The notes: generated from the letters alone by a model not told the origin. A stretch of DNA of 42,224 bases from an uncultured Candidatus Altimarinota bacterium (GCA_937944175.1 CALDZW010000043.1:1-42224), one strand, 5' to 3'. Shown: positions 17,894 through 38,414, counted from the stretch's first letter. Translations and numbers: made by a program.

Positions 17894-18679
17894 TTACTTA
17901 ATATCCATAATTTCAATATCAAAAGTTAGTTTTTTCCCAGCAAGTTCATGATTTACATCAACAAGAACTCCTGTAGCAGTTGCTTCTTTAATTTTGAATT
18001 TACCAAATTGAGTTGGAAGTAATTGACCTGGTTCTAATTTAATTCCAGCATCTTCAAATTGTTTTAATTCTGCTTTAGGAACCATCTGTACTCTAGTAGC
18101 ATCATATTCACCATAAGCATCGGCAGGTTCAACTTCTAATTTTTTCTTATCTCAAATTTTCATACCAATAAGTCATTCATCCCATCCTTTAATTACTTGA
18201 CCTTGACCAATAGCAAATTCAAATGGTTGTCCTCTATCAAGTGAAGATTCAACTTTCTCACCATTATCTAGACTTAAAGTGTAATGAACAGCAACAGTAT
18301 TACCAGTCTGGATTGGGTAATTTGATTTATCTGCTGGGACAACAGGAGCAGGAATTGCTGGTTGTTGAGCTGCTAGTTGAGCTGCTGGTTGAGCTGCTGG
18401 TTGAGCTGGTTGTTGAGCTGCTGGTTGAGCTGGTTGTTGAGCTGCTGGTTGAGCTGGTTGTTGAGCTGGTTGTTGAGCTGGTTGTTGAGCTGGTTGTTGA
18501 GCTGGTTGTTGAGCTGCTGGTTGAGCTGCTGGTTGAGCTGCTGGTTGAGCTGCTGGTTGAGCTGCTGGTTGAGCTGCTGGTTGAGCTGCTGGTGTTTCAG
18601 TAGTAGTATTTGTTGCATTTTGGTTACAACTAGCAAGCACTAGTAAAGCAACAAGCATCATAATTTTTTTCATATTCAT
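17894..18679 (-). CDS. FKBP-type (SlyD-like) peptidyl-prolyl isomerase lipoprotein with a Pro/Ala/Gln repeat linker
   Basis: Track fragments 17894-18085 and 18173-18679 share a frame and join through TGA codons. The joining triplets were checked. Lipobox MNMKKIMMLVALLVLASC. (AAQP)/(AQQP) repeats. FKBP core VHYTLSLDNG...FAIGQGQVIKGWDEG...NHELAGKKLTFDIEIMDIK. Stop is TAA at 17894-17896. 261 aa. Confidence 0.85.
18357..18593. repeat. 12-bp tandem repeat, about 19.5 copies, two unit types
   Basis: The units GCTGCTGGTTGA and GCTGGTTGTTGA, plus one GCTGCTAGTTGA variant, were counted directly. They lie in-frame within the lipoprotein linker (AAQP / AQQP). Confidence 0.95.
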
Positions 18680-23509: not shown

Positions 23510-24085
23510 ATGGAAACTTTTTTAAAAAAAGAGATTAAAGCTTGAAAGTTTGAGCTAATAATTGATACTCAAATTTTCTCAAAAGATATTATATTGAAAT
23601 CAGCATTTGTTTACTTGGATCAATGATATTTCTTCTTCAAATATGATAAAGAAAATATTATTTTACAGTTTACTCAAAAAGATTGAGTAGATGTAAGTCC
23701 AGAGATAATTATATGAGAGTTTTCTGATACATTATTAGAGATGACTCTAAGAGATAAACTAGAAAAAGATAATAAAACTATTAGAGAAGCAATAGTTGAA
23801 AAGGCAATTAATGGGCCTTTAGATCAACAAAATTTTGTTACGCTAGATACAGATGCTTGAGAGCAGGTATGAAAACAAACTGAACAAAATCAAATAGATT
23901 TTGACAAAGATATTGATGAAATTCTTAAAGAAATAGAAAATGATCCAGAGCTTCAAATTGATGAGGCAGAAATTGAAAAAATTCTTAAGGAAATAGAAGA
24001 GGAAACAGAGACAGAAGTACAAAAACCAAAATTATCTGCTAATTTGGATGGATTAAAAAAGGCAAAAAATCAGTTTAAAAAATAG
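23510..24085 (+). CDS. hxsD: HxsD-like protein with an acidic repeat-containing C-terminal extension
   Basis: The frame was checked codon by codon. ATG at 23510, TAG at 24083-24085, 191 aa. The N-terminal domain (FSKDIILKSAFVYLDQGYFFF...FSDTLLEMTLRDKLEKDNKTIREAIVEKAI) matches my memory of the HxsD signature LLNDYxLRE. The tail contains the duplicated EILKEIEND / KILKEIEEE. Confidence 0.5.
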
Positions 24086-24311: not shown

Positions 24312-25766
24312 ATGCTAGATTTAGAAAAAATTCAAAATACCAATACTACTAAAATAGGGTTTTTTAGGTTTAAAAAATTTGATGACAATCAGTATTTGCT
24401 TACAAATGATGCTTGAAAATTCATATTCCTAAGCAATGCAGATTTTGAAATATTTGTAAGTTGAGAAAGTCTTGAGGCTCTTGCTGATTATGGTGATTTA
24501 ATAAAAAAAGGATTCATAAAAAATGATGATTATCAAGCAAAAATGACTTGATCAGTTGCTTTAAAAAATCACTTTGTCTGAGTGTGACCAACTCTTCATA
24601 TGATTGTTACTACGCTTAGATGTAATCATAAATGTAAATATTGTCATGCAGCAGTTGCTCCAATGACAGCAACAGAGTTTGATATGTCAAAAGAAACAGC
24701 AAAAAAAGTAGTTGATACCATTTTCTTTACTAGCTCACCAAGTTTAACTATTGAATTTCAGTGAGGTGAGTCACTTGTGAACTATGAAGTGGTTCAGTAC
24801 ATTACAGAGTATGCAAAAGCAAAAGCACAACATCTCAAGAAAAATCTTCAATTAAATTTAGTGACAAATCTTACATTAATGACTGAAGAAAAGCTCACTT
24901 GGTTACTTGATAATTGAGTTGATATATGTACTAGTCTTGATGGAGATGAGATCACTCATAATAATAATAGGTCTGGATATCAAGACTGAAATTCATTTGA
25001 AACAGTTACTTACTGGCTAAAAAGGGTTAGTGAAGAAAAACAAAAAAGAAATATGTGAAAAATATGAGCACTTTTGACTGTGACAAAAGAAACTATCCCA
25101 AAATTTAAAGAAATTATTGATCAATATGTTGGTTTATGACTTGACTGAATTTTTCTTCGTTGGTTAAATCCATATGGCTTTGCAGCAACTCAAAAAGAAG
25201 ATCTTGCATATGATTCAGATGAATGGATTAAATTTTATAAAAACTCACTTGATTACATTATAGAATTAAATAAAAAATGAACAGTATTTAGAGAACACAT
25301 TACATGAATATATTTAATGAAGATTTTTAACTGAAAAGATCCAGCGTTTATGGACATTAGAAGTCCAAGCTGAATTGCTGTTGGTTGAGTGGCTTATAAT
25401 TATGATGGCAATATATATGCCAGTGATGAATCAAGAATGTTGTGAAGAATGTGAGATGATAGTTTTCTTATGTGTGAAGCTTGAGAGGATGGTAAAGAAA
25501 ATTATAAGAATATGATCAATTCTGATATTACTAAGATTGCAGTTCAATCAAGTACACTAGATTGACTTCCAGGTTATAATGATCATGTGTATAAAACCTA
25601 TCTATGAGTGGATATAATACACAACTATAAAACAGCAGGATCATTGTATAATCCAATTCAAAAAGATGAAAAGATGCAAATGCAGATAGCTATTCTTGAT
25701 TATATTTTTGAGAAACTGCAAGATCCAGAAGATGAAAAAATATTAATGAGTTGGATTTGAAAGTAG
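24312..25766 (+). CDS. hxsB: Radical SAM enzyme, HxsB-like peptide maturase with N-terminal RRE-like domain
   Basis: All 484 codons were checked with no TAA/TAG. CNHKCKYC cluster motif at about residue 105 and a FQGGESL glycine-rich motif. The ~95-aa N-terminal domain (YLLTNDAGKFIFLSNADFEIFVSG...LIKKGFI) looks like a peptide-recognition element. The C-terminus has a SPASM-like spacing but lacks the cysteines. Stop is TAG at 25764-25766. Confidence 0.7.
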
Positions 25767-25826: not shown

Positions 25827-26219
25827 ATGAGTGATAAAAAGAAGAAAATTTTTCCAAAGATTAAGAAAAAATTAAAGTCTTTCTTGACAGACGAAAGTGG
25901 GAAAATCACGAAAAAGGATGCTTTGGGGTTGAGTGCAGCAGGTCTTTTGCTGACTTGAGCTAATGACGCAAGTGCTGCAGTGACAACTTGGACAGTCCCT
26001 GCAGGGTTGCCTTTTCCAAACCCAGCAGATCCAAATAACCATAATAATTCAGTTGCTCCTACATATATGACTGTATCATGACCAGCTACCTGCTCACATG
26101 CAAGTGGGATAGTTAACTGACATTATAGTGCTGTTCCCAATGTTAACCAAACTCAAACACAATATGAACTTCATGGTCATGGAAGTCATGGAAGTCATGG
26201 AAGTCATGGGCAATGGTAA
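25827..26219 (+). CDS. hxsA: His-Xaa-Ser repeat peptide (HxsA-like putative precursor/substrate), 130 aa
   Basis: ATG at 25827, TAA at 26217-26219. Lys-rich N-terminus, a hydrophobic segment ALGLSAAGLLLTGA, then NDASAA (AXA-like). The C-terminal half contains SHASG, GHYSA and ends in HGHGSHGSHGSHGQW. Confidence 0.65.
26172..26210 (+). repeat. 9-bp in-frame tandem repeat encoding (His-Gly-Ser)3
   Basis: The unit CATGGAAGT occurs three times, perfectly, at 26178-26204. It is flanked by the degenerate copies CATGGT and CATGGG. Confidence 0.95.
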
Positions 26220-26242: not shown

Positions 26243-26995
26243 ATGAATGGAAAATTATTATTATCAATAATTGTGAATATCATTTTTGTTTTTGCAATAG
26301 CATACTATTTCACTAATAATCAAGAAGTATATACCTTAACCTCTGAAGTTAAGAAGAATGAATGAACTACCAATATTATTTGATCTAATGCTGCTCAGCC
26401 TTTTTTACAACAACCTGACAATAATGTGCAAGCGGGTAATAATATGCAAAAAAGTATAATTAGTGCAAAGTCAAACACTGATAAATGTGATTTCTCAGTG
26501 AGTTTACAAAATGATTTTTGAGACAATTGATTGAACCAAGAGTTACAAGAAAAGACAAAGAAGATATTAGAATTATCAATTGAAAAATGAGAGGATTATA
26601 GATTCTATAGGGCTTTTCATTCTTGAGAAAAGTGTGAAAAGCTTTTTGAAGATTACATCTTAGAAAACCTATGTAATATTATTGTTAATAATAAACAAAA
26701 TTCTTATACTAAGCTTGTCTGATATGATGAGTATGAAGATAATAAAGAGAAAAATAAAGTTTTATGAGTGGCAAGCAAGTTCTTATGAAATGATGATAAT
26801 ATATGTGATAAAGTATGTGAAGAATCTTACAATGATTTTTTGATTATTAAGGAGAATAATATTAATACAAAAGATATTTTTAATAAAAGTATCTCTGAAA
26901 TTACAACATTACTAATTAATTGATCTATTTCTAAAGATGAATTGATAACAATTGCTTCAAAACAGTGCATTAAAAATAGTTCAAAAAAACAATAA
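26243..26995 (+). CDS. Membrane-anchored hypothetical protein (250 aa)
   Basis: The frame was checked codon by codon. ATG at 26243, TAA at 26993-26995. N-terminal TM segment LLLSIIVNIIFVFAIAYYF. The extracytoplasmic part has 7 Cys. No recognisable domain. Confidence 0.55.
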
Positions 26996-26997
26996 TT

Positions 26998-28215
26998 ATG
27001 TGAAAGAATAATGAGAAATTGTTAAATAGCATATCAATTTACATATATCAGAATGAGCAAGATGATTTTTTTATGAGTAACATAGAGATGTTATCTATAC
27101 AATCCTTTTTAACTCAAGAATGTCCAAATTCTAGAAAAAAAGTATTTTTTATAAATACGGGGTTTTTATTATCTAAAATATTGTTAGAAGAGAATATTGA
27201 GTGATATTTGAGGTTAATGGAGTTAATCAAAAAGAAGCTAATAACAAGTAATATTTGATGATTAAAAATAATCTTTGATTACCTCCCCTTAAGATTTTTT
27301 TGAAAAAGCTTTTTAAAAAATAATTATTATTATTTAAACTTTGAAAACAATTTTTGAATAGAATCTTTTTATAATGTAAAGAAAAAAACACACCAAAAAA
27401 GAGTTTCTATCCAGGTTTTAGTCTCTAGATTAGACTTTTTAGATGATTTATTTTCATCAATTGTAAATCAATCTATAGAGGTAAAAGAGATATTCATTTT
27501 TGTGAATTTTAAAAATAAAGAGGATATTGTTTTATTTGAGCTTAAATTTTTAAATTATATGAATTTTTCAGACTGCAATATCAAATTGTCTTATTCCATA
27601 GAAGAGTTTTCTGAATCAAAAGCAAGAATCTTTATGCCCAGAGAATCAGAATGTAGATATATTCTACCCTTAGATGATGATGACTTTTTAGATGAAAATT
27701 GTGTATCTGAGGTGGAAAAAGTCTTAAATAATTATTGAGATTTTTCATTAATAAAAGGGTTATATACATGAATAAGAAGTAAAGACAATTTTGAGAATAG
27801 AAGAAAAAATACAGAAGAGATAGGTATAAAAGAGAAAGTAGATTATGAGCTTGATAGAAGAAAATGACGTTTCCTTGTTCCCAAAAATATAGCATCAGTT
27901 GATCAATTATATGTCTATAATTATGATTTATTAGAGTACTATTGAATAACAACACATAAAGAAAGCTTTAATGATCCATGAATAGAAATAGAGCTATTCT
28001 TAAAATCTGAGGAAATATGATGATTTTTTTTAATTGAGAAAGAATTGTATTTTAAACGATCTTGGGAATCACAAGTTACTAATAATTTTTCTTTTCAGAA
28101 GGAGTTATTTAACTATCTATTCAATATCTTAAGTAAGACCTTGATATATAGAAATATAGATAAGTATGTTAAAATAGATTTATTTCCATACATTAAAATT
28201 GATCCAAAACATTAG
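26998..28215 (+). CDS. Glycosyltransferase family 2-like protein (405 aa) with an extra degenerate GT-A-like N-terminal module
   Basis: ATG at 26998, TAG at 28213-28215. VSIQVLVSRLDFLDDLFSSIVNQS...IFIFVN and the DXD-type LDDDDFLDE fit a GT-A fold. Residues about 10-60 (ISIYIYQNEQDDFFMSNIEMLSIQSF...VFFINTG) repeat the same pattern. Confidence 0.5.
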
Positions 28216-28220
28216 CAATT

Positions 28221-29156
28221 ATGAAAAAAATAGTGGTCACATGAGGACTAGGTTTTATAGGAAGTTATTTTGTTGAAAAGGCATTAAAAGAGGGCTTCCA
28301 TATAATTAATATAGATAAAAATATTTATAAGAAAAGAACAAATACAACATATGCAATGAATAAAAAGTATCAATTATGGGAAAATGATATTCTTGATATA
28401 AAAGAGATCCCAAGTGATGTTGACTTTGTAGTACATTTTGCAGCTGAGACAAGTGTTGATGAGTCAATCAATAGTCCAGAAAAATTTATTGATTCAAACA
28501 TTAATTGAACTTTACATTTATTACAACTATTTATTCAACATGTCTCTTTGGAGAAGGCAAAGTTTATTTATATTTCTACTGATGAAGTTTATTGAGAGAT
28601 TCCAGTAGGAATGTTCAATGAAGAGAGTCCAATGATTGCATGAAATACATATGCAGCTACTAAGATAGCTGCTGAACAGCTGGTTTTTGCATTCCATAAA
28701 ACTTATTGAATAAGGTTCAATATATGTAGGAGCTCAAATATTTATTGATACTGACAAAGTGATGATAAGCTCATACCAAAGGTTATTAAATTTGCATGAA
28801 AAAAGCAAAAGATTTGAGTTCATGGATCATGACTTTATTCACGAGAGTGGACATTTGCTTGAGATAATGTGGAATGAATCTTTATTGTAATGATAAAGGG
28901 TAGTGAAAATGAGATATACAATATTTCAACAAATGAGGAATTCACAAATTTGGAGATCATAAAAAAAGTATTAAAAATAACATGACTCCCAGAGAACTTT
29001 TATGTAAATGTTGAAAACAGAAAGTGACAAGATTGCAGGTATTCAGTTGAATCAAAAAAGATAAGATTATTATGATGGAGGCAGACAATGACTGTTGATA
29101 GGTATTTAGACTTATATTTTAACAAATCTTCCAAAGGTGAAAGTTGAATTTTATAA
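28221..29156 (+). CDS. rfbB: dTDP-glucose 4,6-dehydratase-like NDP-sugar dehydratase (SDR family)
   Basis: Rossmann motif VTGGLGFIGSYF, then HFAAETSVDES, ISTDEVYGE and the YAATK catalytic Tyr/Lys. Stop is TAA at 29154-29156. 311 aa. Confidence 0.8.
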
Positions 29157-30270
29157 ACATAATATATGAATCATTGATGTTTTTAACCTTTTAAAAGTAT
29201 TAAAAGGTATTTTTCTGACTACATGAAAGACTGTAGATAAATTTGAAAGAAAATTATCTTTATATACTTGAAATAAATATTCAATCTGAATGAAATCATG
29301 TACAATAGCACTTTTTTTATCATTAAAGTACTTTAATATCTGAAAATGAGATGAGGTTATTACTACTCCATTATCATTTGTTTCTACAGCAAACTCTATT
29401 GAACATACATGAGCAAAACCAGTTTTTGTTGATGTTGATAAAAAAACATGAAATATTGATCTTAAGAAGATTGAATGAAAAATTACATCTAAAACTAAGG
29501 CAATAATAGTAGTACATCTATATTGACAAATGGTTGATATTGTTAAACTAAAATGAATAACTGATAAATACAACATAAAAATTATTGAAGACTCAGCACA
29601 CTGTGTTGAGTGAGAAAACAATTGAATCAGACCATGAAATATATCAAACTGTGCATGCTTTTCATTTTCGACAATAAAGAATATAACAAGTTGAGAATGA
29701 GGAGCAATAAGTACGAATGATAAAAGTATGAGTGACTGGCTTAAAAAGGCTAGATTACACTGAATTTCTAAATCAGCAGCTCAAAGGTATGGACTTACTT
29801 ATGAACATTATGATATGGAATTTTTATGATATAAGTCAAATATGACAAATATTGATGCATCATTATTATTAAATCAAATTGATAATATTGATAAACTTTT
29901 ATTAAAAAGAGAAAGGATATCTCAAAAGTATAATGATTGATTCAAAAATAATGAAAATATAGGTTACCCAGATGTATTACTAAATTGAGTACATGCAAGA
30001 CATTTATATACTATATTGATAAAAGATTCTTGATTAAGAGACACATATATATATAAGCTTCAGAAAGCATGAATATGAGTTGCAGTTAACTTTAGAACTA
30101 TTCATCTGATGTCTTATTATAAAAAGAAGTATAGTTATAAAAGAGGGGATTTTCCTAATGCTGAATTTTATTGAGATGCTACTATATCTATTCCCCTTTA
30201 CCCAAAATTAAGAAACAGTGAAATAAACTATATTATTAAAATAATAAATAGTATTAATTATGCAACATAA
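29137..30270 (+). CDS. DegT/DnrJ/EryC1/StrS-family PLP-dependent sugar aminotransferase
   Basis: The only plausible start is GTG at 29137 (the frame opens after TAG at 29107), overlapping rfbB by 20 nt. Motifs: TTGKTVDKFERKLSLYTG, EVITTPLSFVSTANSI, IEDSAHCVEG, and the Lys motif FSFSTIKNITSGEGGAI. Stop is TAA at 30268-30270. Confidence 0.8.
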
Positions 30271-31189
30271 AAGTGTGTTTTTAGAATTAACAGATAACTG
30301 CAACCTTTCCTGTGAGTATTGTAATAAACATTATGGTTTTGAATACATTGATTTGGCATTATTTGAAAATGTTGTGAGACAGGTTGCTGTCAATAAAAAG
30401 ATACTTGTAAGAATGCTATGTCTATGGTGATGAGAGCCATTCTTACACCCAAAAATATGAGATATATTCCAAATTTTAAAAACATTTTTTCAAAATTATG
30501 TAGGAAGTTTTGACATCATTATTAATACAAACTGACTTTTATTAAGAAAAAATAGGGATTTGTTAGACAGCTTGGTAGAAGAGCTAGCAAATATAAACTT
30601 TATAGTTTATGTCTCTTTAGATGGAATATGAAAGGAAGGAAATATTAACCGAGCTATTACAAATAAGCAATATTACTGAATTGTTGATTCTGTCAAATAT
30701 CTGAAAAATAAAAAATTAGAAAATTTAACTGTGAAGGTAAGCTCAGTTTTATCTTTTAAGAACTCTCCATTATCTCAGCTAAGATCTTTTGTTTCTTACT
30801 TTGACTCATTAGGTGTTGATATCAATTTTTGTTTTCAAGAGTTTGTTTCTTGAAAAGAAAAAAAAATAAAAAAAGATGAACTTAAATTGCTATTGAAGAA
30901 ATACATTTTTTTGAAGAAGAAGAAAATTGACGTGTATTTAGAATCAAAAAATGAGTTTAATGATAATTATAGAATCAATGTTAAAGGAGTTGTTAATAAA
31001 CATATTGATGGTAGTTTTGATTGATCTGATAAATTTATTATATCTAAAGAATGAGACATTAAGAATATTGAAAATGAAACAAGTATAGATATAACAAATG
31101 ATGAGATATGGTGAATAATGTATGCTAAAAAAGATTATATTAAATTGATAAGCATTATATATAATTCAACTTATAAAGACACGGGATAG
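30260..31189 (+). CDS. Radical SAM enzyme (309 aa, no C-terminal Cys cluster)
   Basis: The ATG at 30260 overlaps the aminotransferase gene by 11 nt. All codons were checked. CNLSCEYC at residues 14-21, then WGGEPFLHP and SLDG. Stop is TAG at 31187-31189. Confidence 0.8.
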
Positions 31190-31378
31190 GTTGAGTTACA
31201 CATAATGACATTTCTATAAAGAATGCCAGGACATTCTTCTTGCATTACTCTAATTGTAATAAAACAACTTATTGAGAGGAGTATATGTAAGGATTAGTGT
31301 ATGAAACGATTATAGAGTGGACAATTAATGATAAAATAATATAATTTTTTCAATTATATTATATCAAAAAGTAAAATT

Positions 31379-32794
31379 ATGAAAGGGTTCTCAATACAAC
31401 ATACTAAAATGCTCTTATTCTTGATTAACTTTTTTGATGGTATTGGCTTAGCTTTTAATTACCCATGGTACATATTTTATAACCAAAATTATAGTAGTTC
31501 AGAGGTGAACTCTTTTTGGGAGAGGCATAATCAAACTAATCACCCAACTCAATTATATTTACACACGCTGTTTTGTGAAACCAAGTGTCATTACTGTAAT
31601 TGTATATCTTATGTTGATAATGATCAAGGGAACTTTGTCAAATATAAATATTTCTTATTTCAAGAGATAGATAATTATAGTAAGATTATTACTAAAGATT
31701 TAGATACTCTTTATTTTTGATGAGGAACCTTCTCACTTTGGAATGAACAAGATATGGAAGAGATATTAATAAAAATTAAGAAAAGTTTTAATTTTAAGAA
31801 GAATTACACCTGGATGGTTGAACTACACCCTGAGTCAACTAATAGAAAGAAACTTGAAATATTGAAGAAGTATTGAGTCACAAATGTCATGATAGGGTTA
31901 CAGTCTCTTAACAAAAAAGTGAGTGAAAAGAATAATCGACCATATAATGAATGAAAAATTATTGAAGTAATTGATGACATTGTTGATCTGAGGTTTAATA
32001 AAGTATGCTTTGATATAATGTATAATTTGCCTTATGAAACCTATGAAGATTTAGAAGAGAATCTCTGTAACTTAAAAAAAATAGGTGAAAGAATATCTTG
32101 AAAAATTAATATGAATCTTGAGATAAATAAATGGAATATGTCATATAATGTCCCATTTTACAAGATATGAATTAATGATAATTTTTCTAAACTACAGGAC
32201 TTCTTAGAGGACTTTTTTAGATTGCTAGACAGAAAGACAGCATTGATAAAGTCATTTAAAGAAAAATCACTAAATAGTTTATTTGGTCATAATAGAGAAG
32301 AGATTGATTCAAGAAAAAAGAATAATTCTGCCATATTAGGGATTGGCTATTGAGCAATATCTTATGTCCCCTGAATTGCTACATATAGTTTTGATTTTTC
32401 ATATAAGAAGATTAAAAGTTTTTATGGAAATACGAAGTTTAAATGACATAATCTTTCAGAGCAAGATAACATAAACTTTTCTTTTTTAAATAATATAAGG
32501 TCTTGATTTGATCCTGTAATTATGCAATCAGCACTTTCATCTATTTCTCAAGAAGCATTGAGACATTTTAAAAAAATACAAAAAAGTCTTAAATTATCTA
32601 GTGATTGAAAAATAACAGCACAACTTGAAAATGATTTACTCCTTCATCAAATGTCTCTTTGTTTTTATTCATATTCAAAAAGAAAGGATGTTATGAAGTG
32701 ACTGGTTAAAAAGTGGTTTTCTTTAGGTAATAGTGTAGAAGACCTTGAAGATAATATTGATAATTATTTAGAATTATATTATAAGAAAGATTAG
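31379..32794 (+). CDS. HemN-like radical SAM enzyme (coproporphyrinogen III oxidase-like / class C methyltransferase-like), 471 aa
   Basis: All codons were checked. LYLHTLFCETKCHYCNC (the HemN-type CxxxCxxCxC), then YFGGGTFS and VMIGLQSLN. Long C-terminal domain. Stop is TAG at 32792-32794. Confidence 0.75.
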
Positions 32795-32849
32795 ATATGC
32801 TTTTTATGTAGGGCTCAGAGTATGTTTATATATGTAATATATAGAGATT

Positions 32850-33758
32850 ATGAAACGATTAGAATTTCACATAACATATTCTTGTAATCATGCTTGCATA
32901 TTTTGTAGTGAGGATGATAGGATGATGGAATACTCAAAAAATCCTCTAACTGAGATCCAAGTTCGTTCAATACTTGTTGATAGAGCAAAAAAGTGATATA
33001 ATCATGTTAACTTTACTTGAGGAGAACCAACACTCTTCCCAAACTTCTTAAAGCTTTTGAGTTTTACTAAAAAGATTGGTTATAAAATTTATGTATGAAC
33101 AAATGGCACCTCATTTGTATCTAAATCCTTCTCAAAAGAAGCTTTAAAATATATTGACGAGCTATCTTTATCAATTCATTGGTTTAATCAAATTAGCTGT
33201 AAAGCTCAAACAGGGCACAAAAAACATTTTGACCTTTTTAAGATTATTGCAAAGAATATTAAAACTTATAACCAGAAGAATTTTTTCTTCTCTAATGTTG
33301 TAATAAATAAATCTAATTATATGGATACACTAAAGATTATTAAATTTGTTAAAGAATCTGATTATCCAGTAGCACAAGTACTTATCTCAAATATAGCACC
33401 TGAATGATTGGCTGACCATAATTTTAAAGACCTAGCATTCTCTCTTGATGATTTTAAATTAGATATACCTGATATAGTAACATATACATCTCAGAATAAT
33501 ATTATCTTGAGGTTCTTTGGTCTTCCAACATGTATTCTTTGAAGGGATTATGAAGATTACTCTAATGATGGTCATTGGCAAGAAAGGCACACAATAGAAA
33601 GATATACAAATGATCGTGGTAATATTGTTCTTAAAGATACTTACAGTCCTGATAATTCACGTAAGAGGACTTTTGTGAGAAAGTGTCAGACTTGTGAGTG
33701 GAGATTGAATCCCTGTACTTGAGTATTTAAAAAATATTTAGATTTCTATGAATTTTAG
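32850..33758 (+). CDS. Radical SAM enzyme with a C-terminal 4-Cys (twitch / partial SPASM-like) motif, 302 aa
   Basis: CNHACIFC at residues 12-19 and FTGGEPTLFP. C-terminal GLPTCILG ... CQTCEWRLNPCTGVF. Stop is TAG at 33756-33758. Confidence 0.8.
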
Positions 33759-33825
33759 ATTAATAATTTATCTATTACATAGAGATTACTATTGCTAATA
33801 AGATACTCAAATAGTTTAATTTTTC

Positions 33826-34755
33826 ATGAAAATAATGGAACTTATCTTTATACTTACATACGAATGTAACTTTCGTTGTACCTACTGTGATATTGACAAA
33901 AGAGATGAAAGTATATCTCAAAAACTATTACAAGATTCAATTGTTTTTTTGGAGAAAAATAATTTTCCGATTAAAAAGGTGAAATTTTTTTGAGGAGAAC
34001 CACTATTAAAAAAGGATTATATTAAATACATTATAGCTAACTTCCCTAAAAGTTATAATCCAGACTTTTACATTACATCAAATTCAACTTTGATTGAAGA
34101 TCAATTTATTGCTTTTATTGAGGACAATAATGTTAAATTGACATTTAGTTTAGATGGTGATATTGAAACTACATCAGTGAATAGATTACTTCAAAACTGA
34201 AAAAATCTCTCACAGGAAATCATAAAAAACTCAGAGAAATATTCAAATCTGATAAGAGTAAATCAAGTTATCACTTCAAAGAATGCAAAGGATTTTTTTA
34301 AGAATTTCTTGTTTATATATAATTTATGAGTTACTAGGTTTAACTTTCTTCCAGAATATTATGCAGAATGGTCAAAAGAGGGGTTGGGGAATTTAAAAAG
34401 ATGATTTCATGAAATAAAAAGATTTTATAATGAAGGGAATAGATTTGAGCTTATAAATCTTGAAAATTACTCAAAAGTAGCATTTTTTAATTTAGGAATA
34501 ATTATTGATACAGATTGAAAGATATATGGGACGAATCTTATTCTCTCTTGAATCTTTGAAAAATATAAGAAGGACTTAGTTATCGGAGACATTCATAATT
34601 GATTAAATTATGACATACATGATAAAGAATTTAATCTCCATTATCAGTCTAAGATAAATAGATTTATTAATAAAGAATACTCCCCAGTAATCTTAAAGTC
34701 TGTTAAGTATGTAGATTTGATATTAAATGACTTTTGTTATAAATTTCACAATTAA
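33826..34755 (+). CDS. Radical SAM enzyme (309 aa, Cys-less SPASM-like tail)
   Basis: All codons were checked. CNFRCTYC at residues 14-21, then FFGGEPLL and SLDG. The C-terminal IIIDTDGKIYGTNL resembles the SPASM beta-hairpin but has no Cys. Stop is TAA at 34753-34755. Confidence 0.8.
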
Positions 34756-34838
34756 ATAAACCAGGAGAATAAAGATTATGAGAATATCCTTCATAACTGT
34801 TTAGCTACAGAATATCTTATTAATCATAGTATCTTAAC

Positions 34839-36119
34839 ATGGAAAATAAAAAAAAGTTAATATTGAAAGAGGCAACTCAGAAAGAAAATCGTATATGGGT
34901 AAGAATTGCATCTGCTTGTAATAACATATGTATTTTTTGCCTTGATAGTGATGCTCAGAATTGAACCTTCCCTGAAGAAGAGAAAATTAAACATGAAATT
35001 AGAGTATGATATATAAAGGGATATGAGAATAGAATTATTATATCTTGATGAGAAGCTAGTATTAATCCTAAATTCTCAAATTATATAGCATATGCTAAGG
35101 AGGTCTGATATAATAAGATTCAAACTGTTACAAATTGAAATATGTTTTTTTCAGAAGAATTTTGTAAAAAAGTTTTTAAAGCATGATTAGAGGAGGTAAC
35201 TTTCTCGTTTCATGGTCATAACTCTACTCTTCATGATTACTTAGTAGCAACTCCATGAGCATTTAAGAAATCTCTCAAGGGATTGATTTATGTTAAGAAA
35301 AACTTCCCAGATATAATTGTGAATATTGACATTGTGGTGAATAAGGTAAATGTAAAGTACCTTCATGATATTGTTAGTTTTTTTATGAAGTTGTGAGTGT
35401 ATGAATATGATATCTTACAAATAGTACCATTTTGAAGAGGATTTTCAAAATATAAAAAACAACTTTTCTATAATATAGAAGATTATTCACAAGAATTGAC
35501 AAATACATGGAAACTGAGCACAATTAATTGAATGTATATGTGGACAAACAGGTTCCCAGCTGAGGCATTTGAATGATATGAAGATTTGATTCAAGATCCT
35601 AGGAAAGTTAAATGAGAGGTTATGTGAGAATGAATCAATATGTTTTCTAAGTTTATAAAAACTAAGTGATTATCTAAGCCAAATTGTTTTTGAGATGCTT
35701 GCAATGTTTGCTTCATTAAACAATATTGTCATAATTTTATAAATAATGTAAATAGGCCTAGTCTTAATTACAACAAAGATAATACCTTCATTCTGAGATG
35801 AGAAGAGTTTCCAAGTGAGGTATATAAAAAATATTGAGAATCTAAAGAAAATTTTTTAGAGTTTTTGCATTGAAAAAAGATGAAAAATATTAAATTAATC
35901 AATGTTCCAAAGTGTTTATGATGAGAATGACTTTTTGAGAAGTACAATGATTTAAATCCTGAGTATGAAATAAATGATTATACTAAAAAGTACATTAAGA
36001 ATTTATATAGAAAAAAATCTTTAAGATGTAATAAATGCAGATATAATGAAACGTGTGAGTGAATTTGAATTAATTTTATAAGAAGTTATTGATTCAATAT
36101 TTTAAAACCAATTATTTAA
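34839..36119 (+). CDS. Radical SAM enzyme with two C-terminal Cys clusters (SPASM-like), 426 aa
   Basis: All codons were checked. CNNICIFC, ISGGEASINP and FSFHGHNSTLHD. Auxiliary motifs CFGDACNVCFIKQYC and VPKCLGG...CNKCRYNETCEGI. Stop is TAA at 36117-36119. Confidence 0.8.
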
Positions 36120-36121
36120 AT

Positions 36122-37066
36122 ATGGCTAATATATGATACATTCAAGTAAATAGACATTGCAACAATGCATGCCATTTTTGTAGTAATCCAAGCAATTGAA
36201 ATAACATTTCTTATGAGAGATGATTAGAATTAATTGATGATTTCATTGAAAAGAAATATCTTGGTATCATCTTTACTTGATGAGAGCCGACATTATCATC
36301 AGATTTAGCTGAATGGATAGAATATGCTAATAAAAAAGGAATAGAGAATAGAATGATATCTAATGGAATGATGTGCTCTAGTAAAGATTATATCAGTAAG
36401 TTATCTAAATCTTGATTGAAATTGATTCATTTTTCTGTGTATTCTTGCTATGAGAAGATTCATGATTTTCTAACGGATACTCCTTGATCTTGGAAGAAGC
36501 TTATGATGAGTATCACTAATGCTCTGAATGCTTGAATAAGAGTGCAAATCAATACAGTTATAAACCATTATAGTGAAAATCATTTAGATGAAACAGTAAG
36601 GTTTATTACTAGGACTTTCCCTCCAATTAAACATTTTGTATGGAACAACTTAGACCCTTTAATGATGAGGAAAACAAAAACTGCAATTTCTACATTGCCA
36701 AATTTTAGAATTTTTAAGGATCCATTAGCTAGAGCAATGAAATTTTTAGAAGCGTCATGAAGAACATTTAGAGTTGAAAGAGTCCCCTTATGTTATATAG
36801 AATGATTTGAGTGGGCATCAACTGAAACAAGAAAAATTGTTAAGGATGAGGAAAGAATTGTTCACTTTTTGGATGAAAGAGAAACTGTGAGACAATATTG
36901 AAAATATTGGGAGCATGACAAAAATAAGGATTGTAAGCAATGTAGCCTTAATAGTATTTGTGCTTGAATTTACAAAAAAGACGATTATTTCAGTAATGTA
37001 AATGTTTACCCTCAAAAGCTTTCTCAAGAGAGGAAAAATATAATTATAAAAAAAATTTTAAAATAG
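36122..37066 (+). CDS. Radical SAM enzyme with a C-terminal 4-Cys (twitch / partial SPASM-like) motif, 314 aa
   Basis: The ATG lies 2 nt after the previous stop. CNNACHFC, FTGGEPTLS and HFSVYSCYEKIHD. C-terminal VPLCYIEG ... CKQCSLNSICAGIY. Stop is TAG at 37064-37066. Confidence 0.8.
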
Positions 37067-38414
37067 ATTGTAAAGTTAAAAGTTTTACTATAAGTAGATT
37101 ACTGCTTATTATGGTAATGATGAATCCTGAAATTATGTATGATCAATAAGGAGATGTTGATAAGAGCTTTATTTGATTTTTTGCTTTGAAATTGGGCGTA
37201 TTTTTTTTTTGAATTCTGGTTATTAAGAGGTGTGCTTGTTTTAGATTCAATACTTCATCTTTTGTTAATGAGTTAGACACTCAAAATATATACTCATTCT
37301 TTATCTTTTCAGTGAGATCTTCTTCATGTCAAAGAATTGAGATAAGATCTTTTTTATCTATATAGTCACCTTCTTCAAGGTCAATAATATTCTTATAATA
37401 ACATTCTCAAATCCCAAAGGTTATTTTGTAACTATAGATTATTATTTTTATAAACACATATATTCATAAATACAATGTAAAGATTCTGAATAATAATGCA
37501 CTCATTTCATAAAAGTGATTGATGAGTTGATAACTTACAAAACTCATAAGCACTATTATAAGTATTCATAATAATATATCTGAAACACGTGCAGGATCTA
37601 TGCTATATGTTTGAGAAATATATTTTTTTATTCTCATAGTAATTGTACGGCATATATAGAGTGATCAGATAAATACTCAAATTAGTAACAATACTAAATA
37701 TATATTATATTTCTGAATAATATCTGAAAACATATTGAGAGTCTGAGTGTTTTCTAGTATAGAATTGAAAAGGTATATTCGAGCTAGTCGTATACTTACA
37801 AAAATGATAAGAAAAATAATAATGAATGTTATTATGATTCTACATGTGTTTCATCACTTGTTTTGTTTGTAAACATTCCATGTGTCAGTGACATCAGTGC
37901 GAACATTAGTGAACAGACTGTTTCTATATTGAGAATTGAAAAGAATTTTCCCAAACCAAAACCAAAAAAAATATCCTAACAAATAAGCAATAGTAACAAG
38001 TGCTATATTACCAATAAAAGGAATCACACCAATATAAGGAATAAATAAACTCAATACCAATAAATACTTAGCATCTCAAGCAGCCCATATTCAAAAATAA
38101 TATAATGCAAAGCTTACAACAAGAGTTAATAAGATTTGAATTGAGAAAAAGAGAGGATTAATGTCAGAAAGTCCTGGAAGATATTCTGGAGCTATTCACA
38201 AAAATAAAATCCCCCACCAAAAAGGAATGAGCATCAATAAAAGCCCTAAATATTTATTAGGGATTTTTTTAGTTTTAATATCTGAAACTACTATCTTGTA
38301 GTTGAAATATAAGAATGGAATAAGAAGAATGTATGTGAAAACTTCCAAGAATACAGTTGTTAGTATAATATAATTTATATACAAGCATTGTAGAAGTATA
38401 GATCTTTTTTGCAA
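37044..38414 (-). CDS. A24-family (prepilin peptidase-like) aspartic membrane peptidase with a large internal insertion, 456 aa
   Basis: Track fragments 38196-38414 and 37854-38060 share a frame. I checked every triplet down to TAA (reverse complement of 37044-37046). First Asp motif VVSDIKTKKIPN, second AAGDAKYLLVL, C-terminal PFGP-like STSPYGSYIISGF. The start is TTG (38412-38414) or a nearby ATT. Confidence 0.65.

What the first reader, a model, noticed from the sequence alone, without database searches (positions are those of the whole stretch)
32850..37066. Four consecutive radical SAM genes, three of them paralogs sharing CNxxCxFC and a conserved C-terminal P-x-C ... CxxCx5CxG motif
The genes at 32850, 34839 and 36122 share three features: CN(H/N)(A/I)C(I/H)FC, (T/S)GGE(P/A), and a (F/I)H-containing SxH...HD strand. 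All three end with the same pattern: (L/V)P(T/K/L)C, then about 45-65 residues, then CxxCx5C(T/E/A)G. The instances are CQTCEWRLNPCTG, CNKCRYNETCEGI and CKQCSLNSICAGI. This looks like a twitch or partial-SPASM auxiliary-cluster domain.

The 426-aa member adds a second cluster motif, CFGDACNVCFIKQYC. The fourth gene (33826) has the core motif but a Cys-less tail.

A run of recently diverged maturase-type rSAMs suggests either several sequential modifications on one substrate or subfunctionalisation. I do not recognise this array from described pathways.
Basis: seen in the sequence. Interest (0 to 1): 0.7.

Follow-up and report, generated by a model that had tools for sequence, protein, structure and literature searches.

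The report
Expanded His-Xaa-Ser radical SAM array
The four genes are real radical SAM enzymes in a Gracilibacteria genome that reads TGA as glycine; three are old, divergent copies of HxsC, a maturase of the recently characterised His-Xaa-Ser antiphage system, and they sit in a much enlarged, lineage-wide version of that system that I could not find described in the literature I could search.

Summary
Under table 11 the genes break into fragments of about 50 aa.

The four genes (32850-37066) are the last of six consecutive radical SAM (rSAM) genes. The locus begins with HxsD (23510), HxsB (24312) and a 130-aa peptide with a His-Gly-Ser repeat tail (25827). It is therefore a His-Xaa-Ser (HXS) system, not an unknown pathway.

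Genes 32850, 34839 and 36122 are HxsC homologues. Canonical proteobacterial HxsC carries the same CNxxCx(F/M)C core and the same C-terminal PxC…CxxCx5C(G/T)G motif. These four Cys are conserved in 60/61 to 119/119 orthologues. The 426-aa protein has two fully conserved 4-Cys sets.

They are not recent duplicates:
- They are 22-26% identical to each other but 63-73% identical to orthologues in other genomes.
- They lack HxsC's ~95-aa N-terminal domain.
- They score far below the HxsC and HxsC4 curated cut-offs.

In nearly all of the ~38 related loci fetched, the order is HxsD-HxsB-peptide followed by a highly variable rSAM array. That array holds up to 11 rSAM genes within the ±10 kb fetched, and at least 31 HxsC-like clades occur across the loci.

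No SPASM model matches the tails, so an auxiliary Fe-S cluster is inferred, not shown. Verdict: a new variant of a known kind.

The parts
23510..24085 (+). HxsD-like protein (191 aa): an HxsD domain at residues 18-101 plus an acidic C-terminal extension
   Evidence: NCBIfam TIGR03976 HxsD, 51.3 bits against a cut-off of 50. Found immediately upstream of HxsB in nearly all related loci.
24312..25766 (+). HxsB, a His-Xaa-Ser system radical SAM maturase (484 aa). It lacks the CxxCx5C half-SPASM cysteines that canonical HxsB has.
   Evidence: TIGR03978, 482.9 bits against a cut-off of 370, full length. Loss of the Cys is shown in the alignment.
25827..26219 (+). HxS-repeat precursor peptide (130 aa). 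It has a Lys-rich conserved leader/signal, a C·HASGIVNGHYS core and an HGHGSHGSHGSHGQW tail.
   Evidence: Sequence. The N-terminus matches HxsA3 NF038309 weakly (24 bits, below the cut-off of 65). It belongs to a conserved peptide family in 25+ loci. Relatives with longer tails pass the HxsA4 cut-off.
26243..26995 (+). Unknown 250-aa protein with an N-terminal hydrophobic segment
   Evidence: No Pfam or NCBIfam hit. Unknown genes of similar size (about 230-260 aa) follow the peptide in many related loci, but homology between them was not tested.
26998..28215 (+). GT2-like glycosyltransferase (405 aa; weak match)
   Evidence: Pfam Glycos_transf_2, 20.8 bits against a cut-off of 23.3. Not conserved in the related loci.
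28221..29156 (+). NDP-sugar 4,6-dehydratase-like SDR (311 aa)
   Evidence: Pfam GDP_Man_Dehyd 175 bits and Epimerase 164 bits. TIGR01181 scores 258 bits, below its cut-off of 365.
29110..30270 (+). DegT/PseC-type sugar aminotransferase. The first ATG is at 29290, but the frame is open from 29110 and the N-terminus matches the family, so a non-ATG start is likely.
   Evidence: Pfam DegT_DnrJ_EryC1, 306 bits, with the profile match starting at position 46. Upstream open frame shown.
30260..31189 (+). Radical SAM protein (309 aa) with no Cys-rich tail and no specific family
   Evidence: PF04055, 59 bits. Its best NCBIfam hits (tungsten-cofactor maturase and MoaA, about 63 bits) are far below their cut-offs.
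31379..32794 (+). HemN-like (class C) radical SAM protein (471 aa)
   Evidence: PF04055, 82 bits. HemN, HemW, STM4012 and ChuW models score 89-118 bits, all below their cut-offs.
32850..33758 (+). HxsC-like radical SAM paralogue 1 (302 aa). It has no HxsC N-terminal domain. Tail Cys: C228, C279, C282, C289.
   Evidence: Best family is HxsC TIGR03977, at 79 bits against a cut-off of 268. The Cys are conserved in 60/61 orthologues and 58/58 relatives at about 40% identity. Nearest relative is 63% identical, in L031.
33826..34755 (+). HxsB/PapB-core-like radical SAM protein (309 aa) without a SPASM or Cys tail. It belongs to a second expanded family in these arrays.
   Evidence: PapB 113 bits and HxsB 73 bits, both below cut-off. 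BLASTP to the window HxsB core gives E = 5e-9. Orthologues are 60-63% identical in L002 and L031, and more distant copies occur in most loci.
34839..36119 (+). HxsC-like radical SAM paralogue 2 (426 aa) with two 4-Cys sets: C283/288/291/297 and C359/397/400/406
   Evidence: HxsC4 NF038332, 132 bits against a cut-off of 500; HxsC, 83 bits. All eight Cys are conserved in 119/119 orthologues. AlphaFold2 model of orthologue P0124 has pLDDT 93.1.
36122..37066 (+). HxsC-like radical SAM paralogue 3 (314 aa). Tail Cys: C224, C271, C274, C280. It forms a conserved terminal pair with the 426-aa gene.
   Evidence: HxsC TIGR03977, 105 bits against a cut-off of 268. The Cys are conserved in 118-119/119 orthologues. 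The pair is conserved in L001, L002, L026 and L034. AlphaFold2 model of orthologue P0002 has pLDDT 91.6.
37044..38414 (-). Convergent membrane protein, type IV leader peptidase (A24)-like, about 456 aa if it starts at the TTG at 38414. It has the motifs DIKTKKIPN and AAGDAKYL.
   Evidence: Pfam Peptidase_A24, 26.0 bits against a cut-off of 26.5; orthologues score 28.2 and 26.5. Found at or near the array in L001, L002, L003, L006, L017, L032 and L034. Its role in this system is not established.

Best explanation
The four genes are the 3' end of a ~13.5-kb, co-directional, expanded His-Xaa-Ser (HXS-type) maturation locus. The genome belongs to a Gracilibacteria bacterium that reads TGA as glycine.

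The locus encodes, in order: HxsD; HxsB; a secreted-type precursor peptide with a conserved Lys-rich leader, an HAS…HYS core and an (HGS)3 tail; an unknown protein; three sugar-modification genes; and six more radical SAM enzymes.

Genes 32850, 34839 and 36122 are ancient, diverged paralogues of HxsC. They have lost HxsC's ~95-aa N-terminal domain. They keep its CNxxCxFC SAM-cluster motif and its C-terminal signature of one Cys (PxC) plus a CxxCx5-6C triad.

Inferred mechanism. The four invariant Cys bind an auxiliary [4Fe-4S] cluster, and the 426-aa enzyme binds two. Each paralogue performs a distinct radical-mediated modification, at a different site or of a different kind, on the His/Ser motifs of the neighbouring peptide before its export. 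This would be analogous to the HxsB/HxsC-dependent +8 Da modification of an HxS repeat in the E. coli HXS antiphage system.

Gene 33826 is an HxsB/PapB-core-like enzyme without an auxiliary-cluster tail. It belongs to a second family that has also multiplied in these arrays.

Shown:
- gene structures and the genetic code;
- family relationships;
- motif conservation;
- conserved linkage to HxsD-HxsB-peptide across the related loci;
- the age of the paralogues.

Inferred:
- Fe-S binding by the tail;
- the peptide as substrate;
- division of labour among the paralogues;
- the biological role of the product.
For: Genetic code and genes.

HXS identity of the locus:
- HxsB scores 483 bits against a cut-off of 370.
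- HxsD scores 51.3 bits against 50.
- The HxS-repeat peptide belongs to a family whose relatives pass the HxsA4 cut-off.

HxsC homology of the three genes:
- Among NCBIfam models their best hits are HxsC and HxsC4.
- Aligned with annotated HxsC from Klebsiella, Methylobacter and Mesorhizobium, they share the CN..C.(F/M)C core and the (H/Y/F)PLC-24 aa-ECxxCx5C(G/T)G tail.
- A Lachnospiraceae control scores as a true HxsC at 327 bits, so the test discriminates.

Conservation:
- Tail Cys are invariant in 60/61 to 119/119 orthologues.
- The motif is present in 75 single-module HxsC-like proteins from 45 loci.

Linkage:
- HxsD-HxsB-peptide followed by an rSAM array recurs in nearly all of the ~38 loci fetched, including complete genomes CP017714, CP042461 and OZ245768.
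- The same arrangement occurs in a standard-code contig, L045.

Age of the paralogues: 22-26% identity to each other against 63-73% to orthologues, in three separate clades.

Structure:
- The AlphaFold2 models are confident (pLDDT 92 and 93).
- A beta-hairpin lies between the first Cys and the CxxC helix.
- Foldseek neighbours include BlsE, SuiB, anSME, SkfB and MoaA, which are enzymes with auxiliary clusters.
- The g36122 tail weakly matches the Cas4 C-terminus at E = 1.5e-4. From my own knowledge, Cas4 binds a [4Fe-4S] cluster through one distal Cys plus a CX2CX5C triad.

Function of the canonical system: Li et al. 2026, PMC13128918.
Against: - None of the three genes reaches the HxsC cut-off (79, 83 and 105 bits against 268) or the HxsC4 cut-off (at most 132 bits against 500).
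- They lack the HxsC N-terminal domain. That domain may be what contacts HxsD or the peptide in the canonical system, so how they would recognise the substrate is unexplained.
- They lie 7-10 kb from HxsB, not adjacent to it.
- No SPASM or twitch sequence model matches the tails. I could not obtain model coordinates to measure Cys-Cys distances, so cluster binding is unproven.
- The closest solved structures by sequence also include small-molecule and sugar-nucleotide enzymes (BlsE, viperin, DesII, MoaA), and this window has sugar genes in the locus.
- No correlation was found between paralogue number and HxS repeat number.
- No expression data or chemistry are available.
Confidence: 0.65

Rival explanations
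1. The rSAM array is a small-molecule or glycan pathway, for example modification of a nucleotide sugar or nucleoside. On this view it merely sits next to an HxsD-HxsB-peptide module, and the three paralogues act on sugars or nucleotides rather than on the peptide.
For: The window carries a GT2-like gene, an NDP-sugar 4,6-dehydratase and a DegT aminotransferase between the peptide and the array. By sequence and fold, the nearest solved structures include BlsE (cytosylglucuronate decarboxylase), viperin (CTP), DesII (TDP-sugar), MoaA (GTP) and BtrN. PADLOC and NCBIfam give pVip/viperin core hits of 57-78 bits.
Against: The sugar genes are absent from essentially all of the ~40 related loci, whereas the rSAM array always follows HxsD-HxsB-peptide. 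The top curated family for all three genes is HxsC or HxsC4, and they share HxsC's specific tail motif. The viperin, MoaA and BlsE cut-offs are missed by wide margins. The structural matches are driven by the common rSAM barrel (TM about 0.45-0.65). In this genome the sugar genes are better read as an optional tailoring or glycosylation add-on, or as an unrelated insertion.
Confidence: 0.12
2. Only one paralogue, most likely 36122 or the conserved 34839+36122 pair, is the working HxsC equivalent. The other HxsC-like genes would be redundant, regulatory, non-catalytic or decaying copies rather than enzymes with distinct steps.
For: The 426-aa + 314-aa pair is the only part of the array conserved at 62-73% identity in several genomes (L001, L002, L026, L034), while the rest of the array varies greatly. 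Gene 36122 has the best HxsC score, 105 bits.
Against: Gene 32850 has 60+ orthologues at 51-79% identity in which the SAM-cluster Cys (in every copy with an intact N-terminus) and the tail Cys (60/61) are kept, plus 58 relatives at about 40% identity that keep all seven Cys. That is the pattern of an active enzyme under purifying selection. All of the genes have intact CxxxCxxC and GGE motifs. These genomes are about 1-1.5 Mb and would be unlikely to retain many dead genes.
Confidence: 0.13
3. The tail Cys form a structural zinc or other non-cluster metal site, or disulfides, rather than an auxiliary [4Fe-4S] cluster. On this view the enzymes are single-cluster rSAMs.
For: There is no SPASM, twitch or Fer4 model hit on the tails even at E <= 10. 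The only tail hits for the 426-aa protein are insignificant, for example a zinc-finger model at E = 0.11. Four-Cys sites are also typical of zinc ribbons.
Against: The CX2CX5C spacing is the one used in SPASM domains and in Cas4-type [4Fe-4S] sites (my own knowledge; weak Cas4 hit). The tail follows the sixth barrel strand and contains a beta-hairpin, where twitch/SPASM domains sit. Foldseek alignments to SuiB and anSME span the full length of the query (over 320 alignment columns for a 316-residue model) and give slightly higher TM scores (0.62-0.65) than the alignments to viperin, which has no auxiliary-cluster domain (0.56-0.61).
Confidence: 0.2

Closest known systems
HxsC (TIGR03977), the second radical SAM maturase of the His-Xaa-Ser / HXS antiphage system (predicted in silico earlier, credited to Haft and Basu in PMC9062424; characterised by Li et al. 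2026, PMC13128918)
   Same: Homologous rSAM core with CNxxCx(F/M)C and GGEP. The same C-terminal (P)xC … CxxCx5C(G/T)G four-Cys signature. It occurs in a locus with HxsB, HxsD and an HxS-repeat protein.
   Different: The window genes are present in three copies here and up to eight elsewhere, not one. They lack the ~95-aa N-terminal domain. The spacer between PxC and CxxC is longer (37-50 aa against 24). One copy has a second 4-Cys set. They are not adjacent to HxsB. They score 79-105 bits against a cut-off of 268. The host is a code-25 CPR bacterium, whereas 99.7% of described HXS systems are in Pseudomonadota.
NCBIfam 'rare' Hxs variants: HxsC4 (NF038332), HxsA3 (NF038309), HxsA4 (NF038313) and the HxsD-like protein (NF038315)
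   Same: Gene 34839 has HxsC4 as its best family (132 bits). The peptide leader matches the HxsA3 N-terminus. Related peptides pass the HxsA4 cut-off. Curators have therefore already recognised non-canonical Hxs components.
   Different: The HxsC4 cut-off of 500 is missed by a wide margin. The window peptide itself passes no HxsA model. I found no description of arrays with 5-11 rSAM genes.
SPASM/twitch radical SAM peptide maturases and relatives (anSME, SuiB, SkfB, PapB, BtrN, BlsE, MoaA)
   Same: The same partial TIM-barrel core followed by a Cys-rich C-terminal extension containing a beta-hairpin. CX2CX5C spacing as in the SPASM motif. They are among the top Foldseek neighbours.
   Different: There is no PF13186/SPASM sequence match. 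The tail has 4 Cys in a 1+3 arrangement rather than the 7-8-Cys SPASM motif or the BtrN-type twitch pattern. The 426-aa protein reaches 8 Cys through two 1+3-like sets, not through the interleaved SPASM pattern.
Multi-rSAM RiPP clusters in which several rSAM maturases act on one precursor (for example darobactin/dynobactin-type, triceptide and ranthipeptide systems)
   Same: One short precursor with a conserved leader and a repetitive core, flanked by rSAM maturases. The chemistry is presumably cross-linking.
   Different: The number of rSAM genes per locus (7 here; at least 9-11 elsewhere, plus 2-4-module fusion proteins) and their turnover between related genomes is much higher. The substrate motif (His-x-Ser) and the enzymes belong to the Hxs lineage.

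Membership tests
Radical SAM superfamily (PF04055) | Pfam score above the gathering threshold, with CxxxCxxC and GGE motifs | tested here: met
   All four genes score 47-86 bits against a cut-off of 29.5. The motifs are visible.
HxsC (TIGR03977 equivalog) | Whole-protein score at or above the curated cut-off of 267.9 bits | tested here: not met
   79.1, 83.0 and 105.1 bits for genes 32850, 34839 and 36122. The positive control, L037 HxsC, scores 327.5 bits.
HxsC (TIGR03977 equivalog) | C-terminal PxC … CxxCx5C(G/T)G four-Cys motif and a CNxxCx(F/M)C core | tested here: met
   Alignment with three annotated HxsC proteins. Conservation shown.
HxsC (TIGR03977 equivalog) | An N-terminal domain of about 95 aa preceding the rSAM core | tested here: not met
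   The window paralogues begin 10-25 residues before the CxxxCxxC motif. Canonical HxsC has 100-120 residues there.
HxsC (TIGR03977 equivalog) | Single copy, immediately downstream of HxsB (order D-B-C-A) | tested here: not met
   Three copies lie 7-10 kb downstream of HxsB, and the order is D-B-A-…-array. The canonical order is given.
HxsC4 (NF038332) | Score at or above the curated cut-off of 500 bits | tested here: not met
   67.9, 132.3 and 71.1 bits.
His-Xaa-Ser (HXS) system | HxsB present | tested here: met
   TIGR03978, 482.9 bits against a cut-off of 370.
His-Xaa-Ser (HXS) system | HxsD present | tested here: met
   TIGR03976, 51.3 bits against a cut-off of 50, which is a borderline pass. 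The position upstream of HxsB is conserved.
His-Xaa-Ser (HXS) system | HxsA effector with tandem His-Xaa-Ser repeats (in the canonical system also a peptidoglycan-binding domain) | tested here: inconclusive
   A 130-aa peptide with three tandem HGS repeats plus HAS and HYS is present. It passes no HxsA, A2, A3 or A4 cut-off, and no peptidoglycan-binding domain was found. Relatives with longer tails pass HxsA4.
His-Xaa-Ser (HXS) system | Antiphage activity by blocking DNA entry; +8 Da modification of an HxS repeat | not testable with these tools
   These are experimental properties reported by Li et al. 2026.
SPASM / twitch domain rSAM enzymes (PF13186, TIGR04085) | Sequence match to the SPASM domain model | tested here: not met
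   No PF13186 hit on full-length proteins at E <= 0.01 or on isolated tails at E <= 10. The canonical HxsC tail also gives no hit.
SPASM / twitch domain rSAM enzymes (PF13186, TIGR04085) | C-terminal Cys-rich extension after the barrel, with a beta-hairpin, binding one or two auxiliary [4Fe-4S] clusters | tested here: inconclusive
   The topology in the AlphaFold2 model is compatible: Cys, helix, beta-hairpin, then a CxxC helix. SPASM and twitch enzymes are among the top Foldseek hits.
Prokaryotic viperin (NF038283) and MoaA (TIGR02666) | Score at or above the curated cut-off (180 and 284 bits) | tested here: not met
   Viperin 57-69 bits (reported for genes 32850 and 36122 only) and MoaA 39-54 bits.

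The most novel reading that the evidence does not exclude
Gracilibacteria, and some standard-code uncultured relatives, possess a 'mega-Hxs' system. In it, a radiation of at least 31 HxsC-derived radical SAM clades, including two-cluster forms and 2-4-module fusion proteins, works with HxsB-core-like and HemN-like enzymes as a combinatorial modification line. Together they hyper-modify one small secreted His/Ser-rich peptide. The rapid turnover of the enzyme set between related genomes would reflect an arms race (phage defence, as for the E. coli HXS system, or host or prey interaction in these episymbionts), with each paralogue installing a different His/Ser cross-link.
Probability: 0.3. Interest if true: 0.8.

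Novelty: new variant of a known kind. Interest (0 to 1): 0.6.

Why it matters
The HXS system was only recently shown (2026) to be an antiphage defence. In that system two rSAM enzymes mature an HxS-repeat effector through an unresolved +8 Da chemistry, and it was reported as almost exclusive to Pseudomonadota and almost always four genes.

This window shows that bacteria with ~1-Mb genomes and an altered genetic code carry a much larger and highly variable version of the system. It takes up more than 1% of the genome and is built by repeated duplication of a trimmed HxsC.

Three things follow:
- The conserved one-plus-three Cys tail is identified as a family-wide HxsC feature that the experimental paper did not discuss. 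It is an obvious target for mutagenesis and spectroscopy.
- The locus offers a natural panel of dozens of diverged HxsC variants and matched peptides. These could help work out what HxsC chemistry is and how site or reaction specificity is encoded.
- Gene callers using table 11 or table 4 fragment or mistranslate these loci, which is probably why they have gone unnoticed.

Tried and rejected
1. Table-11 ORF calling gives only fragments. It was replaced by code 25 after checking the stop-codon identities.

I used database orthologues instead (A2). That search returned mostly multi-module proteins and did not reach canonical HxsC. Canonical HxsC was obtained through a plasmid tblastn with HxsB.

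3. SPASM/twitch by sequence: no Pfam hit on the tails at E <= 10. The PDB profile search aligns only the core, residues 5-178.

4. Measuring Cys-Cys distances in the AlphaFold2 models was not possible, because no coordinates are exposed.

5. Correlating paralogue number with HxS repeat number: none found, and the arrays are cut at 10 kb, so the test is weak.

6. Sugar or nucleotide pathway reading: rejected as the main explanation, because the sugar genes are not conserved across the loci.

7. Recent tandem duplication: rejected.

8. Pseudogene or decaying copies: rejected on the conservation evidence.

9. Membership of the PADLOC defence-system library: only generic pVip core similarity. The library predates the HXS paper.

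10. A PDB sequence search for the membrane protein found nothing. The A24 assignment came only from Pfam, after extending the ORF to a TTG start.

11. Literature searches for Gracilibacteria or CPR rSAM arrays found nothing relevant.

Full report

Read with the standard bacterial code, the region 32850-37066 has no long ORFs, only fragments of 40-70 aa. Translating the four proposed frames shows that every internal 'stop' is TGA. These fall where radical SAM (rSAM) proteins have glycine (T*GEPT for TGGEPT, CT*V for CTGV). The frames end at TAA or TAG. NCBI-annotated orthologues from Candidatus Gracilibacteria carry Gly at exactly these positions. The metagenome database copy of the window protein had been translated with Trp there.

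The window, at about 28% GC, therefore uses genetic code 25. Under that code the genes are 32850-33758 (302 aa), 33826-34755 (309 aa), 34839-36119 (426 aa) and 36122-37066 (314 aa). They are co-directional, with gaps of 2 to 83 bp. All four pass Pfam Radical_SAM.

Three small corrections apply:
- The spacers between PxC and CxxC are 50, 37 and 46 residues.
- Gene 32850 has CxxCx6C.
- The 'HD' element is missing from 32850.

**2. What the locus is**

The four genes are the end of a longer co-directional block:

| Coordinates | Product |
|---|---|
| 23510-24085 | HxsD (TIGR03976, 51.3 bits; cut-off 50) |
| 24312-25766 | HxsB (TIGR03978, 483 bits; cut-off 370) |
| 25827-26219 | 130-aa peptide ending HGHGSHGSHGSHGQW |
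| 26243-26995 | unknown 250-aa protein |
| 26998-28215 | weak GT2-like protein |
| 28221-29156 | NDP-sugar 4,6-dehydratase-like SDR |
| 29110-30270 | DegT aminotransferase |
| 30260-37066 | six rSAM genes |

With HxsB that makes seven rSAM enzymes. This is a His-Xaa-Ser system.

The canonical system was predicted in silico, and PMC9062424 credits that to Haft and Basu. It was characterised in 2026 as the HXS antiphage defence. HxsB and HxsC, with HxsD, mature the HxS-repeat effector HxsA through N-terminal processing and a +8 Da change in an SHRSS motif. The matured effector then blocks phage DNA entry in the periplasm. That system was reported as 99.7% Pseudomonadota, more than 99.8% four-gene, and ordered D-B-C-A (PMC13128918).

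**3. What the three 'paralogues' are**

An all-against-all BLASTP confirms that 32850, 34839 and 36122 are related to each other (E = 1e-9 to 1e-19). They are more distant from the other four rSAM genes, and share only 22-26% identity among themselves. Their best curated families are HxsC and the 'rare' HxsC4, but the scores are far below the cut-offs: 79, 83 and 105 bits against 268, and at most 132 bits against 500.

I fetched three annotated proteobacterial Hxs cassettes through HxsB and aligned their HxsC proteins with the window genes. Canonical HxsC has the same CN..C.(F/M)C core and the same tail, (H/Y/F)PLC – 24 aa – ECxxCx5C(G/T)G(F/Y)F.

The differences are:
- The window proteins lack the ~95-residue N-terminal domain of HxsC.
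- They have a longer spacer.
- They occur in several copies.
- They are not next to HxsB.

A Lachnospiraceae HxsC found in the same scan scores 327 bits, which shows that the cut-off test discriminates.

**4. Are the cysteines conserved?**

The results, all:

| Gene | Tail Cys | Conserved in |
|---|---|---|
| 36122 | C224, C271, C274, C280 | 118-119 of 119 homologues |
| 34839 | C283/288/291/297 and C359/397/400/406 | 119 of 119 (all eight) |
| 32850 | C228/279/282/289 | 60 of 61 orthologues, and 58 of 58 relatives at ~40% identity |

A survey of all loci found the motif in 75 single-module HxsC-like proteins.

In the 426-aa protein, the internal motif sits where the others have their terminal motif. 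The PxC Cys is lost there (RFPAEAF) and replaced by C283, five residues upstream of the triad. The terminal VPKC…CNKCRYNETCEG looks like a second, appended copy of the module.

**5. Is the tail a twitch/SPASM domain?**

AlphaFold2 models of close orthologues are confident: P0002 (74% identical to 36122) has pLDDT 91.6, and P0124 (70% identical to 34839) has pLDDT 93.1.
1. sixth barrel strand;
2. PLC;
3. helix;
4. beta-hairpin;
5. short helices carrying CxxC;
6. the last Cys.

This topology is compatible with twitch/SPASM extensions.

Foldseek's best PDB neighbours are BlsE, SuiB, GDGT-MAS, viperins, DesII, anSME, SkfB and MoaA. TM-scores are about 0.55-0.65 for the 314-aa type and about 0.44 for the 426-aa type, and the common barrel dominates them.

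By sequence, only the core (residues 5-178) aligns to solved structures. No SPASM model matches the isolated tails even at E <= 10. A weak hit of the 36122 tail to the Cas4 C-terminus (E = 1.5e-4) is notable because, from my own knowledge, Cas4 binds a [4Fe-4S] cluster with one distal Cys plus a CX2CX5C triad.

I could not obtain coordinates to measure Cys distances. Auxiliary-cluster binding is therefore a well-motivated inference, not a result.

**6. Context in other genomes**

Orthologues of each window paralogue are numerous, and the named ones are all from Gracilibacteria.

Two near-complete genomes show still larger arrays around the 426+314 pair. There are 9 and 11 rSAM genes within ±10 kb, interspersed with PPDK_N/PEP-utilizer genes, and the arrays are closed by the same convergent membrane protein.

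A genome-collection scan with HxsB returned 38 loci, nearly all Gracilibacteria, including complete genomes CP017714, CP042461 and OZ245768. Annotated under code 25, they share the order HxsD – HxsB – HxS peptide – variable rSAM array. The sugar genes of the window are not conserved in these loci.

The HxsC-like proteins fall into 35 clusters at 40% identity. Of these, 31 contain no canonical (TIGR03977-level) HxsC. The window's three genes sit in three different clusters, each seen in 5-6 loci, and their nearest relatives are 63%, 70% and 73% identical in other genomes. The duplications are therefore old, and the set of paralogues differs greatly between genomes.

True two-module fusions exist under code 25 (L020, L003). 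The exhaustive search found proteins of 600-1,400 aa with 2-4 modules and normal Trp/Gly content.

The same system also occurs in standard-code contigs:
- L045 has an HxsB C-terminus, a peptide ending (HGS)10HGQW, and relatives of all three window paralogues at 35-47% identity.
- L044, a MAG labelled Thermoproteota, has nine consecutive rSAM genes.

**7. The peptide**

Across the loci the peptides share these features:
- a very conserved Lys-rich N-region (KKKIFPKIKKKLKxFLTDESGKITKKDALG);
- a short hydrophobic stretch and an AxA-like site, which I read as a Sec-type signal peptide;
- a variable core with a conserved C·HASGIVNGHYS motif, which itself contains two H-x-S triplets;
- an (HGS)n tail with n = 2-18.

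Longer-tailed relatives pass NCBIfam's HxsA4 cut-off, and the leaders partly match HxsA3. Curators have thus catalogued related peptides. The number of repeats does not track the number of rSAM or HxsC-like genes within 10 kb (rho 0.04 and -0.12, n = 15).

**8. How it most likely works**

Shown: an HXS-type core (HxsD, HxsB, HxS peptide) is linked in nearly all of the fetched loci to a variable set of trimmed HxsC-derived rSAM enzymes with an invariant 1+3 Cys tail, plus HxsB-core-like tail-less enzymes (33826 type) and HemN-like enzymes.

Inferred:
- The tail binds an auxiliary [4Fe-4S] cluster, and the 426-aa form binds two.
- The enzymes act in the cytoplasm on the neighbouring peptide before export.
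- Different paralogues handle different H-x-S contexts or install different cross-links, by analogy with the HxsB/HxsC-dependent +8 Da change in E. coli.
- The sugar genes of this particular genome are an optional tailoring add-on, or unrelated.

Rivals:
- A sugar or nucleotide pathway. This is weakened because the sugar genes are not conserved and the family signal is HxsC.
- Only one functional HxsC equivalent. This is weakened by strong conservation of each paralogue.
- A zinc site rather than an Fe-S cluster. This remains open.

**9. Novelty**

The system type is known, and NCBI has models for rare variants. I found no description of multi-rSAM Hxs arrays in Gracilibacteria or other CPR bacteria in the searchable literature. 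The 2026 paper does not discuss the HxsC Cys tail. I rate this a new variant of a known kind, and a moderately strong lead for rSAM/RiPP and phage-defence researchers.

Noticed in passing
whole window (for example 32850-37066): The window uses genetic code 25 (TGA = Gly) at about 28% GC. Public metagenome protein sets hold these genes translated with TGA = Trp (P0001, P0121, P0241), which puts about 4-6% wrong residues into conserved Gly positions such as GGEP.
   Followed up: yes
window 24312-25766; L007, L017, L020 compared with L041-L043 and L037: Gracilibacteria HxsB has lost the CxxCx5C…FC half-SPASM cysteines that canonical HxsB keeps (LPGCDTCAYQPFCG becomes LPGYNDHVYKTYLG). It has 2 Cys after the core, against 6-8 in canonical HxsB. 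In this lineage the core maturase may have lost its auxiliary cluster while Cys-tailed HxsC-like genes multiplied.
   Followed up: partly
window 37044-38414 (- strand): The convergent membrane protein that closes the array is a type IV leader peptidase (A24)-like protein. It probably starts at a TTG 180 bp upstream of the first ATG. Pfam gives 26.0 bits against a cut-off of 26.5 (orthologues 28.2 and 26.5), and the motifs DIKTKKIPN and AAGDAKYL are present. It could process the peptide's Lys-rich leader, or it could simply be the cell's prepilin peptidase; type IV pilus-like genes appear to lie at about 10.4-12.8 kb, judged only from the N-terminal sequences in the ORF list.
   Followed up: partly
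L013 11466-12380, L014 11466-12386, L015 6556-7479: Some loci have a second HxS peptide gene of about 305 aa. The same leader and HxS-rich region are fused to what looks by eye like a Hint/intein-type C-terminal domain (…GSCFTYSQRVLTPNG…LVHNA), which would suggest autoprocessing. No domain search was run on it.
   Followed up: no
L020 18169-20067, L003 16526-18436; P0361-P0411; L044 4432-6270 and 10994-12940: Tandem fusions of two to four HxsC-like rSAM modules in one polypeptide (600-1,400 aa). Their Trp/Gly content is normal, so they are not read-through artefacts of the wrong genetic code.
   Followed up: partly
L045 (JGI 3300037504, 26% GC) and L044 (GCA_042576685.1, labelled Thermoproteota): The same expanded Hxs-type arrays occur in contigs that translate correctly with the standard code. 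L045 has an HxsB C-terminus, an (HGS)10HGQW peptide, a B12-binding rSAM and PEP-utilizer genes. The archaeal label of L044 may be a binning error or may indicate horizontal transfer.
   Followed up: partly
window 26998-30270: A GT2-like gene, an NDP-sugar 4,6-dehydratase and a DegT aminotransferase are inserted between the peptide and the rSAM array. They are not conserved in the related loci. The DegT gene appears to use a non-ATG start, because the frame is open from 29110 and the N-terminus matches the family.
   Followed up: partly
window 33826-34755 and 'rS309b' genes in L001-L045: The Cys-less fourth gene belongs to a second multiplied family in these arrays. It has an HxsB/PapB-like rSAM core without any SPASM tail, and one to three copies occur in most loci.
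   Followed up: partly
L001 2612-3361; L002 6991-8713; L045 14719-15555: PPDK_N and PEP-utilizer domain genes (phosphotransfer modules) are embedded in several arrays but are absent from the window. They might phosphorylate or activate the peptide.
   Followed up: no
window 17894-18679 (- strand): A 261-aa predicted lipoprotein (signal ending LASC) with long tandem PAAQ repeats. It is unrelated to the finding.
   Followed up: no
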